64,000 bases of DNA from the human T2T-CHM13v2.0 reference genome, Homo sapiens. The stretch lies in NCBI RefSeq assembly GCF_009914755.1, contig NC_060932.1; one strand, given 5' to 3'. Under the pieces are notes generated by a model, which was not told the origin of the DNA, made no database searches, and saw only the letters and a program-made list of their open reading frames with translations. Below, piece by piece: positions 21,776 to 41,859 of this stretch; within the stretch, counting starts at the first letter, position 1, and every line of letters starts with the position of its first letter. The translations under genes were made by a program, and so were the position numbers.

Positions 21776-22690
<915 letters not shown>

Positions 22691-22861
22691 TATATCTATA
22701 CATGCAGAAAAAGTATTACAGACTAGAAAAAGCATAAGCAAAATCCCAGTGGTAGGAAACAGCTTGCCATATTTGGAAGGGTTGACATCACCCACTGTAC
22801 TGCAATAGACAGTTGATATGTAAGAATACTGAAAAATCAGATTTGAAATATGAGTGAGAAC

Positions 22862-23329
22862 TGTCAGACCTCTAAGCTGAAGCTCAGCCATTATAATCCC
22901 AGTGACCTGCACATATATGTCCAGATGGCCTGCAGGAGCAAGAAGTCTGGAGCAGCCAAAAAACCACAAAGAAGTAAAACATCCAGTTCCTGCCTGAACT
23001 GATTAACCAACATTACAACATTCTACCATTGTGACTTGTCCCTGCCCTACCTTAGGTGATCAATAGACTTTGTGACATTCTTCTTCTGGACAATGAGTCT
23101 TATGATCTCCCCACCATGTACCTTGTGACCCCCTCTTCTGCTAACAATAGATAACCACCTTTTACTGTAATTTTCCATTACCTACCCAACTCCTATAAAA
23201 CAACCCCTTCCCCATCTCCCTTCACTGACTCACTTTTTGGACTCAGCCCACCTGCACCCAGGTGAATTAAAAGCTTCATTGCTCACCCAAAGCCTGTTTG
23301 GTGGTCTCTTCACATGGACGTGCTTGAAA
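22862..23329 (+). mobile_element. HERV-H-family LTR (LTR7C-like), complete U3-R-U5
   Basis: TGTCAG...CCAGATGGCCTGCAGGAGCAAGAAGTCTGGAGCAGCC...CCTATAAAAC (TATA)...ATTAAA...AAGCCTGTTTGGTGGTCTCTTCACATGGACGTGCTTGAAA. Confidence 0.92.
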
Positions 23330-23331
23330 TT

Positions 23332-23360
23332 TGGTGCCGAAACCTGGGATCGAACCAGGG
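23332..23360 (+). other. Extended primer-binding site: 29 nt complementary to the 3' end (including CCA) of tRNA-Phe(GAA)
   Basis: TGGTGCCGAAACCTGGGATCGAACCAGGG versus the reverse complement of mature tRNA-Phe, TGGTGCCGAAACCCGGGATCGAACCAGGG: 28/29, the single mismatch being a CpG C>T at 23345. Confidence 0.92.
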
Positions 23361-23397
23361 GATGTATACGTGCAGGCTTGGGCTCAAAGGCCTGACA
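23360..23397 (-). mobile_element. Inverted 38-nt U3 terminus of an LTR7-family LTR
   Basis: Minus strand reads TGTCAGGCCTTTGAGCCCAAGCCTGCACGTATACATCC. It is immediately followed on the plus strand by AGAAC, which duplicates 22857-22861. Confidence 0.9.
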
Positions 23398-24562
23398 AGA
23401 ACCACAGAGGGAAGCTGTCGAATACTAAGCCTAAGCATTAGGAATTTATGCTGCAGGCAGTGGAGAGCCTCGGGGGTGGTCTGAGCATGGTAGTGAGTTC
23501 CACATGCCAGAGAGTTGGAAACCAAGTCCAACACCCCATGCAGGAAGTGGGAGAAGACTGTGAACATACAGTCTCTCCCTCTTCTGGGCCAGATTTGAGA
23601 AAGCATTTTTCTTTCATTGTAAACTTTTTCTTTGACACATAAAAGCCAACACATCCAATAGAGGGTCTCAAAAAAACTGACAGTGCATTTCCTGTTTTCA
23701 ATGCCCCCCTCTAAGAAGCAGTAGCCCTCTAATCTCATTGAATTCTGGCTTAACTTTGAACTTGCAATTCAAAATAAAACCCAGTGATTGACTATTTGAT
23801 GGTGCTATTAAAAAAGTCAAAGGAATGTTAATGATTCTTAACCTTCATGAGTTCTATAAAGGAAAGGAAAGGTCAACAGGCACAACTGAGAAGAGAAAGG
23901 AGGTTGTCTAGCAGCCACAGTGAAAGTTCTGGAGGATGACTACAATGGGCACTAAAAGACCCTAGAAGGACCTGAGTAATTCAATTTTACCATAATAATG
24001 TGTGAGTGTTTGAGGACCAAACATCAATGCTACTTAAGATCAGAATCTTTAATTTTCTTTAATGGCCTTCAGATAATAAGAAAAAAACAAAATTTTCAGA
24101 GGTTCTGTGGCTGTTGAAGACAGACTCTGATCAGAACATTCATTTTAATAAGTACCCAGGTGACTGATGAAATCAGAATCAAATCCACAGAAATAAACCT
24201 AGAGAAATTCTGGTTTGCCCTTCACTTGTTTTTGATCCTCTCAAAAGCCACTTCACGAATACTTTATGTACAGAGAATCATAGACTTGAGAGGGGTTAAA
24301 AGATACAGGGCTCACAGCTCCAGAGTGGTTCTGCTGTATCTTAAAGCCATGTCTTCTAATCCAAGCACTAGTTCTTTGTCTACAGTCCCCTAGTTTATAT
24401 ATAATGAAACTAAATTCATAATGAATTGCTTAATTCCAAAAGTTAAATCAGTCTCGATTCCAGAATTCAAACACGTTACTACAGTCACAAAACCACGCCA
24501 CCTTTGTCTGCCGTTCACTTATGAATTTCCCCAGATTCATGACTCCATTGACCATGATCCAG

Positions 24563-37616: not shown

Positions 37617-41608
<3,992 letters not shown>

Positions 41609-41859
41609 ACAATGAAAACACATGGTCACAGGAAGGGGAACATCACACACCTGTTGTAGGGTGTTGTTGTTGTAGGGTGAGGGGATGTTGTAGGGTGAGG
41701 GCCTGTTGTAGGGTGAGGGGATGGGGGAGGGATAGCATTAGGAGATATACCTAATGTAAATGATGAGTTAATGGGTACGGCACACCAACTTGGCACATGT
41801 ATACATATGTAACAAACCTGCACGTTGTGCACATGTACCCTAGAACTTAAAGTATAATT

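What the first reader, a model, noticed from the sequence alone, without database searches (positions are those of the whole stretch)
23332..23360. PBS runs 11 nt past the m1A58 stop into the tRNA T-arm, and is Phe rather than His
Seen: 28/29 match to the reverse complement of mature tRNA-Phe(GAA) nt 76 to 48, including the post-transcriptional CCA. Known: a retroviral PBS is 18 nt because plus-strand synthesis stops at m1A58; HERV-H usually primes with tRNA-His, although Phe-primed HERV-H/F-type copies exist. Inference: RT read through position 58 (copied faithfully as T) and the T-loop and stopped at C48, next to the modified variable-loop bases. That suggests a hypomodified primer tRNA in an ancestral germline or embryo cell. 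The over-long 3' end could not pair with the minus-strand PBS, which explains the failed strand transfer.
Basis: partly seen in the sequence, partly recalled or inferred. Interest (0 to 1): 0.75.

Follow-up and report, generated by a model that had tools for sequence, protein, structure and literature searches.

The report
Fossil of a derailed retroviral DNA copy
A 536-base insert on human chromosome 8 looks like a dead-end HERV-H reverse-transcription product: a single LTR whose copy of the tRNA-Phe primer ran 10-11 bases too far and then joins a short inverted LTR start, the whole flanked by one target duplication.

Summary
Window 23332-23360 is the reverse complement of tRNA-Phe(GAA) positions 76-48 including the CCA, 28 of 29, and the one mismatch is a CpG C>T.

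The extension is not viral leader. Related proviruses continue differently after the PBS. Pattern scans of this genome found no other LTR-linked copy, for tRNA-Phe or for tRNA-His.

The surroundings change the picture:
- The unit is 22862-23397: a complete 468-bp LTR, then TT, then the 28-29-nt tRNA copy.
- It is joined with a 0-1-nt overlap to the first 37-38 nt of a U3 in inverted orientation.
- That U3 belongs to a different HERV-H LTR subfamily.
- The whole unit has TG...CA ends and a 5-bp duplication (AGAAC), the length usual for this LTR family.

Best reading: a plus-strand strong-stop DNA read past A58, could not be used for the second strand transfer, and switched onto the 5' end of a second plus strand from a co-packaged element. 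Integrase then inserted it through two U3 ends.

The main rival is a full provirus with the same aberrant right end that later collapsed to one LTR. A hypomodified primer is plausible but untested. A "stop at C48" is not shown, because a template switch or a primer fragment fits equally.

Verdict: new variant of a known kind, moderate interest.

The parts
22857..22861 (.). Left copy of the 5-bp target-site duplication, AGAAC
   Evidence: Identical to 23398-23402. A 5-bp duplication is the rule for this LTR family: 13 of 29 relatives have perfect 5-bp repeats (10 counted by script, 3 more read by eye). Most of the rest are proviral LTRs or truncated copies.
22862..23329 (+).
   Evidence: Aligns over 1-466 of 468 to full-length relatives at 84-92% identity (32 of the 39 other hits). 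Starts TGTCAG. Ends GCTTGAAA where 24 of the 27 full-length relatives printed end TTGACA.
23330..23331 (+). TT, the two bases that lie between the U5 end and the PBS in proviruses of this group
   Evidence: The same TT precedes TGG in proviruses L028, L029, L037 and L049 and in L007 and L008.
23332..23349 (+). Normal 18-nt primer copy: complement of tRNA-Phe positions 76-59 including CCA
   Evidence: One C>T at a CpG (23345).
23350..23360 (+). Over-read: complement of tRNA-Phe positions 58-48 (T loop and 5' strand of the T stem); A58 copied as T
   Evidence: 11 of 11 match the gene. Absent after the PBS in all related proviruses seen. The last base is shared with the next part.
23360..23397 (-). 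Inverted first 37-38 nt of a U3 from a different HERV-H LTR subfamily ('family B'); ends the unit with ...CTGACA
   Evidence: 38 of 38 identical to the start of the LTR in L010. It lacks the 23 nt that the direct LTR and all 29 family-A relatives carry. All 29 family-B loci show the short form.
23398..23402 (.). Right copy of the target-site duplication, AGAAC
   Evidence: The flank beyond it (23398-23900) is single-copy in the genome.

Best explanation
The 536-bp unit at 22862-23397 is a germline-fixed fossil of an aberrant HERV-H reverse-transcription product, not the stump of a deleted provirus.

**Shown from the sequence**
- One complete LTR.
- The TT that follows U5 in proviruses.
- Then, with a 0-1-nt overlap, the first 37-38 nt of a U3 of another HERV-H subfamily in inverted orientation.
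- TG...CA ends, and a 5-bp target duplication of the length usual for this family.

**Inferred order of events**
1. tRNA-Phe primed minus-strand synthesis.
2. The plus strand, started at the polypurine tract, copied U3-R-U5 and then the primer.
3. It did not halt before A58. It ran on through the T loop to position 48 or 49.
4. Its 3' end now carried 10-11 bases with no partner in the viral genome, so it could not be extended after the second strand transfer.
5. It switched, on a G/C overlap of at most one base, to the 5' end of a second plus strand made from a co-packaged RNA of another HERV-H subfamily. Mutual extension of the two 3' ends would give a short blunt duplex with a U3 end on both sides.
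6. Integrase inserted this duplex into a germline chromosome through the two U3 ends.

The element has no function today. Its value is as a record of the event.
For: - **tRNA copy.** It matches 28 of 29, includes the CCA that no gene encodes, and its only mismatch is at a CpG.
- **Extension absent from relatives.** The proviruses seen among the related loci (4, 11, plus L003 and L009) all continue differently after the PBS.
- **Rare genome-wide.** The Phe 24-mer with up to 1 mismatch hits this site, 9 tRNA-Phe genes and 1 pseudogene without CCA. The 28-mer with up to 3 mismatches hits this site, 7 genes and 1 retrocopy. The corresponding tRNA-His 26-mer with up to 3 mismatches gave 10 hits, all at tRNA-His gene sites already listed.
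- **LTR complete.** It aligns over 1-466 of 468.
- **Inverted piece.** It is 38 of 38 identical to the U3 start in L010 and is of the short type. That type is found in 29 of 29 family-B loci and 0 of 29 family-A loci.
- **Target duplication.** AGAAC lies on both sides at positions fixed by the TG and CA ends, a chance of about 1 in 1024. The family's duplication length is 5 bp.
- **No other HERV-H nearby.** The right flank is single-copy; the left flank is single-copy apart from an Alu. Among 67 loci carrying HERV-H LTRs and some proviral leader, only this place in the window gave a HERV-H hit; a few short non-Alu hits elsewhere (for example about 40692-41858) were not identified.
- **Literature on the stop.** m1A58 is needed for the plus-strand stop in vitro. 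A plus strand that runs beyond position 54 is no longer complementary and cannot be used (PMC8599865, passages).
- **Literature on recombination.** HERV-H subfamilies are thought to have recombined through co-packaging and template switching (PMC8912925, passages).
- **Yeast parallel.** In yeast, dead-end Ty1 plus strands that over-read the tRNA are found joined to other DNA in integrated composite elements (PMC2939329, passages).
Against: - It is a single event, and no sibling was found. Scans for the PBS start followed at 9-70 nt by the inverted U3 end gave only this site plus 3 unrelated hits. Those scans need 18 exact bases and would miss most old copies.
- No empty orthologous site could be examined. 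The flanks have no paralogues and no other primate genome was available.
- The present sequence cannot tell an RT template switch from end joining by the host.
- It also cannot tell a short integrated product from a full provirus with the same right end that later lost its interior by LTR-LTR recombination.
- Synthesis of two plus strands from two co-packaged genomes in one particle is assumed, not shown.
Confidence: 0.58

Rival explanations
1. A full-length provirus was integrated whose right end was aberrant: 3' LTR, then TT, then a tRNA copy made because the primer stayed on the minus strand, then the inverted U3 piece used as the right attachment site. Homologous recombination between its two LTRs later left one LTR plus the odd tail. 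On this reading the read-through and the two-U3-end integration still happened, but strand transfer did not fail.
For: - It gives exactly the sequence seen today.
- Collapse to a solo LTR is common in this family: at least 13 of 29 relatives are solo LTRs with intact duplications.
- A tRNA copy lying outside an LTR has been described in a cloned MLV circle (Colicelli and Goff 1986, known here only through passages of PMC12220202).
Against: - It needs more rare steps. The first plus strand must have stopped properly and been freed while the tRNA stayed attached, and a later plus strand must then have read past A58.
- No internal viral sequence remains nearby. Recombination would have removed it anyway, so this does not decide the matter.
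Confidence: 0.2
2. Two separate DNA molecules each gave one U3 end to a single integrase complex. One was a strong-stop-type duplex (LTR plus over-read tRNA copy). The other was a short U3 end of another HERV-H. Their free inner ends were joined afterwards by host end joining, not by RT.
For: - The junction has a 0-1-nt overlap and no filler, which fits end joining as well as it fits template switching.
- The two halves belong to different LTR subfamilies.
- Ty1 integrase readily inserts unrelated fragments, and composite elements occur (PMC2939329).
Against: - It needs a 38-bp U3 fragment to exist as a free duplex.
- It needs two donors in one intasome in vivo.
- Nothing in the sequence favours it over a template switch.
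Confidence: 0.1
3. Unrelated nested insertions and deletions: an older inverted family-B LTR and a later family-A provirus, trimmed by chance deletions. The 11 extra bases would be a chance or secondary match to tRNA-Phe.
For: Both LTR families are abundant, with thousands of first-look candidates, so neighbouring copies do occur.
Against: - It would need the outer ends of two different elements to carry the same 5-bp repeat (about 1 in 1024).
- It would need a deletion ending exactly at an LTR border.
- It would need an 11 of 11 extension of the tRNA match (about 1 in 4 million per PBS).
Confidence: 0.04
4. The extension is encoded by the virus: a leader with extra complementarity to the T arm of its primer.
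For: Some retroviruses keep complementarity to their primer beyond the 18-nt PBS. HIV-type genomes do so up to position 55 of tRNA-Lys3 (PMC8599865).
Against: - No related provirus has it.
- No other LTR-linked copy was found by the genome-wide pattern scans.
- No leader follows it here.
Confidence: 0.01

Closest known systems
Read-through of primer tRNA past m1A58 in reconstituted retroviral plus-strand synthesis (HIV-1 with tRNA-Lys3; TRMT6-mutant cells)
   Same: The plus strand continues into the T loop when the stop at position 58 fails. The product is no longer complementary to the genome and is lost for replication (PMC8599865, passages read).
   Different: That work is biochemistry and cell culture with a lentivirus, and the products are not recovered as insertions. 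Here the product of a gamma-type endogenous virus, primed by tRNA-Phe, is fixed in the germline, and it ran to position 48 or 49.
Ty1 dead-end plus-strand strong-stop DNA and 'composite elements' in yeast
   Same: Ty1 plus strands that copy 12 instead of 10 nt of the tRNA accumulate as dead ends. They are found joined, through template switching or mispriming, to other DNA in integrated elements with 5-bp duplications (PMC2939329 citing Lauermann and Boeke 1997; passages read).
   Different: That is yeast, under experimental selection, with an over-read of 2 nt and a transformed DNA fragment as partner. Here the host is a primate germline, the over-read is 10-11 nt, and the partner is the U3 start of a second retroviral element.
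Cloned MLV circle with a tRNA sequence between the LTRs (Colicelli and Goff 1986)
   Same: Reverse-transcribed tRNA lies next to an LTR end as a by-product of priming (as described in PMC12220202, passages read).
   Different: That was unintegrated circular DNA of a mutant virus, with a nearly whole tRNA-Gly that was not the normal primer. The original paper is not held, so the details are second-hand.
Ordinary Phe-PBS HERV-H proviruses
   Same: The same LTR-TT-TGGTGCCGAAACC... junction is seen (L003). 57 of 532 canonical HERV-H chains use Phe (PMC4724089).
   Different: Their PBS stops at 18 nt and runs into the leader and gag. Here the next 10-11 nt continue the tRNA and no leader follows.

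Membership tests
Retroviral primer binding site of a provirus | Starts TGG two bases after the U5 end and complements the 3' 18 nt of a tRNA including CCA | tested here: met
   23330-23331 is TT, and 23332-23349 matches tRNA-Phe positions 76-59 at 17 of 18.
Retroviral primer binding site of a provirus | Complementarity ends at 18 nt and is followed by the leader and gag | tested here: not met
   The complementarity runs on for 10-11 nt. It is then followed by an inverted U3 start and single-copy host DNA.
Plus-strand strong-stop DNA | Begins at U3 position 1, holds a complete U3-R-U5, and ends in a copy of the primer tRNA's 3' end made from the tRNA itself (CCA present) | tested here: met
   The LTR aligns from position 1 to 466 of 468. 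CCA is present, and 0 of 10 genes encode it.
Plus-strand strong-stop DNA | The tRNA copy stops one base before position 58 | tested here: not met
   The copy reaches position 48 or 49. This is the anomaly.
Integrase-mediated retroviral insertion | TG...CA ends and a target duplication of the length typical of the family | tested here: met
   The ends are TGTCAG...CTGACA, with AGAAC on both sides. The relatives have 5-bp duplications.
Integrase-mediated retroviral insertion | One U3 end and one U5 end | tested here: not met
   Both ends are U3 starts. The U5 end lies inside the unit.
Solo LTR from LTR-LTR recombination | The target duplication abuts the LTR directly on both sides | tested here: not met
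   68 bp (23330-23397) lie between the U5 end and the right repeat.
tRNA gene or tRNA pseudogene | Cloverleaf detectable; no encoded CCA | tested here: not met
   ARAGORN finds no tRNA in the window. Rfam finds none at 22500-24000. Only 26 gene-encoded nt are present, and they carry CCA.
LTR7C (named Repbase/Dfam subfamily) | Best match to the LTR7C library model | not testable with these tools
   No repeat library was available. The LTR groups with 29 relatives that share a 23-nt U3 segment and a TTGACA end.

The most novel reading that the evidence does not exclude
The primer or template was not an intact, fully modified tRNA. It was an A58-unmethylated tRNA-Phe species, perhaps a 3' fragment starting at position 48 or 49. 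RT ran off its 5' end and jumped end-to-end onto a second plus strand.

A second, independent fossil fits this reading. On contig 10 (L090), an L1-type retrocopy of the tRNA-Phe 3' end carries CCA directly followed by an A-rich tail. It also copies A58 faithfully and also ends in the variable loop, at positions 45-49.

These are the only two CCA-bearing tRNA-Phe copies found that reach position 49. They were made by two different reverse transcriptases, yet they share the same limit and a faithful A58. If the reading holds, the genome keeps direct records of a hypomodified or fragmented tRNA-Phe pool in the ancestral germline, of its use in priming, and of the in vivo role of m1A58 in plus-strand transfer.
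Probability: 0.2. Interest if true: 0.75.

Novelty: new variant of a known kind. Interest (0 to 1): 0.58.

Why it matters
The rule that m1A58 sets the 18-nt length of the PBS copy, and so makes the second strand transfer possible, rests on test-tube reactions and mutant cell lines. This site offers a natural, datable instance of what happens when that stop fails.

- The over-read plus strand was diverted and was still integrated.
- It shows that two HERV-H subfamilies were probably together in one particle.
- It shows that an integrase-type insertion can use two U3 ends in vivo.

It also suggests a simple genome-wide screen for dead-end reverse-transcription products: an LTR followed by more than 18 nt of tRNA complement. 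It remains one locus with no present function.

Tried and rejected
- **Paralogue-based empty site.** The right flank has only itself as a match. The left flank matches only through an Alu at 22364-22686. No test was possible.
- **Siblings.** The scan TTTGGTGC, a gap of 9-39 nt, then AGGCCTGACA gave 1 hit, which is not an LTR. That first scan used a gap too short to include the window itself. The same scan with a gap of 40-70 nt gave the window and 2 unrelated hits.
- **His read-through.** 10 of 10 hits are tRNA-His genes.
- **tRNA gene or other RNA family.** ARAGORN found none. Rfam gave only weak hits below the gathering scores, none at the site.
- **Copy of the unit's own U3.** The inverted piece is not a copy of the direct LTR's own start. 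The two differ by a 23-nt indel and 8 of 38 substitutions.
- **Papers not held.** PMC252783 and PMC1170264.
- **Prior reports.** Literature searches for an ERV fossil of this kind found none. These searches cover only the held open-access library, so this is not proof of absence.
- **Dating.** I did not build an LTR consensus. The age is given only roughly from pairwise identities.

Full report
**1. The observation**

Window 23332-23360 reads TGGTGCCGAAACCTGGGATCGAACCAGGG.

I took the tRNA from the same genome rather than from memory. A pattern scan of the assembly returned ten sites that ARAGORN calls tRNA-Phe(GAA), plus this window and one pseudogene. The gene sequences show that window 23335-23360 equals the reverse complement of positions 73-48 with one difference; seven of the ten genes have exactly this sequence, and three differ by one more base in the T loop. 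The gene is 73 nt, so gene index equals canonical position.

The TGG in front is the complement of CCA. None of the 10 genes has CCA in its trailer, so the template was a mature tRNA. The single mismatch (23345) is C>T in a CpG, the commonest decay in old human DNA.

The 26-mer with up to 3 mismatches occurs once in the window and in 0 of 100 shuffles.

**2. Is the extension viral?**

- The LTR in front (22862-23329) has many full-length relatives at 84-92% identity.
- Of the 29 I fetched, four are 5' LTRs of proviruses. All four continue TT, then a His-type PBS, then a GGGGACCTCCC-type leader.
- In a second LTR family fetched later, 11 of 29 loci are 5' LTRs. Nine have His-type PBSs, and two have Phe-like PBSs followed by a CAGGAGGACTCC-type leader. 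L003 shows the same Phe-type arrangement.
- None continues with TCGAACCAGGG.

Genome-wide results:

| Scan | Hits |
|---|---|
| Phe 24-mer, up to 1 mismatch | this site, 9 tRNA-Phe genes, 1 pseudogene without CCA |
| Phe 28-mer with TGG, up to 3 mismatches | this site, 7 genes, 1 further locus (see section 6) |
| tRNA-His 26-mer (from L091), up to 3 mismatches | 10 hits, all at tRNA-His gene sites already listed |

Within the reach of these scans, no other LTR-linked PBS in this genome runs into the T arm of tRNA-Phe or tRNA-His.

Phe in place of His is not unusual in itself. Of 532 canonical HERV-H chains, 386 use His and 57 use Phe (PMC4724089, passages read).

**3. What lies around it**

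Three things are not in the finding I was given.

First, the bases after the tRNA copy are not leader. 23360-23397 is the reverse complement of the first 38 nt of a HERV-H LTR, and it is 38 of 38 identical to the LTR start in L010. The unit therefore ends ...CTGACA, the mirror image of its TGTCAG start.

Second, the five bases before the unit (22857-22861) and after it (23398-23402) are both AGAAC.
- The TG and CA ends fix the positions, so the chance of this is about 1 in 1024.
- Five base pairs is the duplication length of this LTR family. 13 of 29 relatives have perfect 5-bp repeats: 10 by script and three more by eye.
- Most of the remainder are proviral LTRs or truncated copies.

Third, the inverted piece is not a copy of the unit's own U3.
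- The direct LTR and all 29 of its relatives carry a 23-nt segment after position 21 that the inverted piece lacks.
- The short form is the rule in a second, large HERV-H LTR family of about 361 bp. All 29 loci fetched with the L010 LTR show it.
- The unit is therefore a chimera of two HERV-H LTR subfamilies.

The flanks are host DNA. 23398-23900 matches only itself. The left flank matches elsewhere only through an Alu at 22364-22686. Among 67 loci carrying HERV-H LTRs and some proviral leader, only 22850-23398 in the window gave a HERV-H hit; most other hits are Alus from the loci's flanks, and a few short non-Alu hits (for example about 40692-41858) were not identified.

**4. The junction**

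There are four Gs at 23358-23361. The tRNA copy needs three of them (positions 50, 49, 48), and the inverted U3 needs two before ATG. The overlap is therefore one base, or none if the tRNA copy ends at position 49. There is no filler.

The copy is 28-29 nt long and the inverted piece 37-38 nt.

**5. How it most likely arose**

The left part has the anatomy of a plus-strand strong-stop DNA:
- U3 from its first base;
- a complete LTR;
- the TT that follows U5;
- a copy of the primer itself, as the CCA shows.

The tRNA copy is 10-11 nt too long. Such a 3' end has no partner in the viral genome. In the HIV-1 system m1A58 is required for the stop in vitro, and a plus strand that runs beyond position 54 is described as no longer complementary and lost for integration (PMC8599865, passages).

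I infer that the stalled 3' end switched onto the 5' end of a second plus strand, or onto an RNase H-cut U3 RNA, from a co-packaged RNA of the other subfamily. If that second strand was a nascent one of about 38 nt, extension of the two 3' ends on each other gives a blunt 536-bp duplex (plus the two bases per end that integrase removes) with a U3 end on each side. Integrase could insert this, and the TG...CA ends and the 5-bp repeat record exactly that.

Co-packaging and template switching between HERV-H subfamilies is the accepted explanation for their mosaic LTRs (PMC8912925, passages).

The closest experimental parallel is in yeast. Ty1 plus strands that copy 12 instead of 10 nt of the tRNA accumulate as dead ends. 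They turn up joined to foreign DNA in integrated composite elements with 5-bp duplications (PMC2939329, passages; the original work by Lauermann and Boeke is not held).

**6. What is not settled**

(a) *Short product or full provirus.* A full provirus with the same aberrant right end (3' LTR, tRNA copy, inverted U3) that later lost its interior by LTR-LTR recombination would look identical today. It needs more rare steps, because the primer must be kept while an earlier plus strand was freed and transferred. I give it about 0.2. In that case strand transfer did not fail.

(b) *RT switch or host end joining.* A one-base overlap fits both.

(c) *Why position 48 or 49.* From recall, human tRNA-Phe carries m7G46, D47 and m5C at 48 and 49. 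Also from recall, these are not strong blocks to reverse transcriptases, whereas the wybutosine derivative at position 37 is.

The one other CCA-bearing copy of the tRNA-Phe 3' end found in the genome (contig 10, L090) bears on this.
- It has 3 mismatches in the 28-mer, all CpG-type transitions.
- It sits between 12-bp direct repeats (CATCAATCTTTA) with an A-rich tail directly after CCA. This is the hallmark of an L1-made retrocopy.
- It too ends in the variable loop, at positions 45-49. The exact base is blurred by the repeat and a possible one-base deletion.
- It too has A58 copied faithfully.

Two reverse transcriptases with the same limit point to a property of the template. That could be a structural barrier at the tRNA core or a real 5' end of a 3' fragment. 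With two cases this is a lead, not a result.

(d) *Hypomodified primer.* The faithful T opposite A58 fits an unmethylated A58. With the RT studied in PMC4787781, m1A followed by U favours misincorporation of dATP (passages), and position 59 here is U. A minority of faithful bypass cannot be excluded from one event.

**7. Age**

Pairwise identity to the nearest relatives is 84-92%. The tRNA copy has 1 change in 29, and the inverted piece has at most 1 change in 38 against its family. With the usual primate neutral rate (recalled), this suggests tens of millions of years. I built no consensus and give no finer date.

**8. Novelty**

Already known:
- the chemistry of the m1A58 stop;
- dead-end over-read plus strands;
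- composite elements in yeast;
- a tRNA copy beside an LTR in an MLV circle (known here second-hand).

I could not find a germline fossil in which an over-read strong-stop DNA of an endogenous retrovirus was integrated through two U3 ends drawn from two subfamilies (searches, over the held open-access library only).

I rate it a new variant of a known kind. It is a neat natural record rather than a new mechanism.

Noticed in passing
L090 (G000:C10:5819600-5820500), 654-681 and flanks: A second CCA-bearing reverse copy of the tRNA-Phe 3' end, with an A-rich tail directly after CCA and 12-bp direct repeats (CATCAATCTTTA). It looks like an L1-type retrocopy of a 3' tRNA-Phe fragment. It ends in the variable loop and copies A58 faithfully.
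   Followed up: partly
L044 (G000:C11:16986315...) and L045 (G000:C11:26170549...): Copies of the family-A LTR that stop near LTR position 424 and run into a long A run. Their left flanks equal those of L036 and L032. They are probably processed retrocopies of host transcripts that were polyadenylated in those LTRs.
   Followed up: no
L021 (G000:C18:62645580-62648603), about 1501-1560: A tRNA-Phe pseudogene without CCA and without the discriminator base. It is cut off in the D arm by an Alu.
   Followed up: no
window 23322-23329: The direct LTR ends GCTTGAAA, where 24 of the 27 full-length relatives printed end TTGACA. Other HERV-H LTRs (L007, L008, L083) also end in GAAA, so a terminal AA instead of CA is common in this group.
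   Followed up: partly
window 22364-22686: An Alu lies about 175 bp upstream of the insert. The rest of both flanks is single-copy.
   Followed up: no
window 23738-23896 (- strand): A weak Rfam hit to a fission-yeast snoRNA model (26.6 bits against a gathering score of 80). Taken as chance.
   Followed up: no
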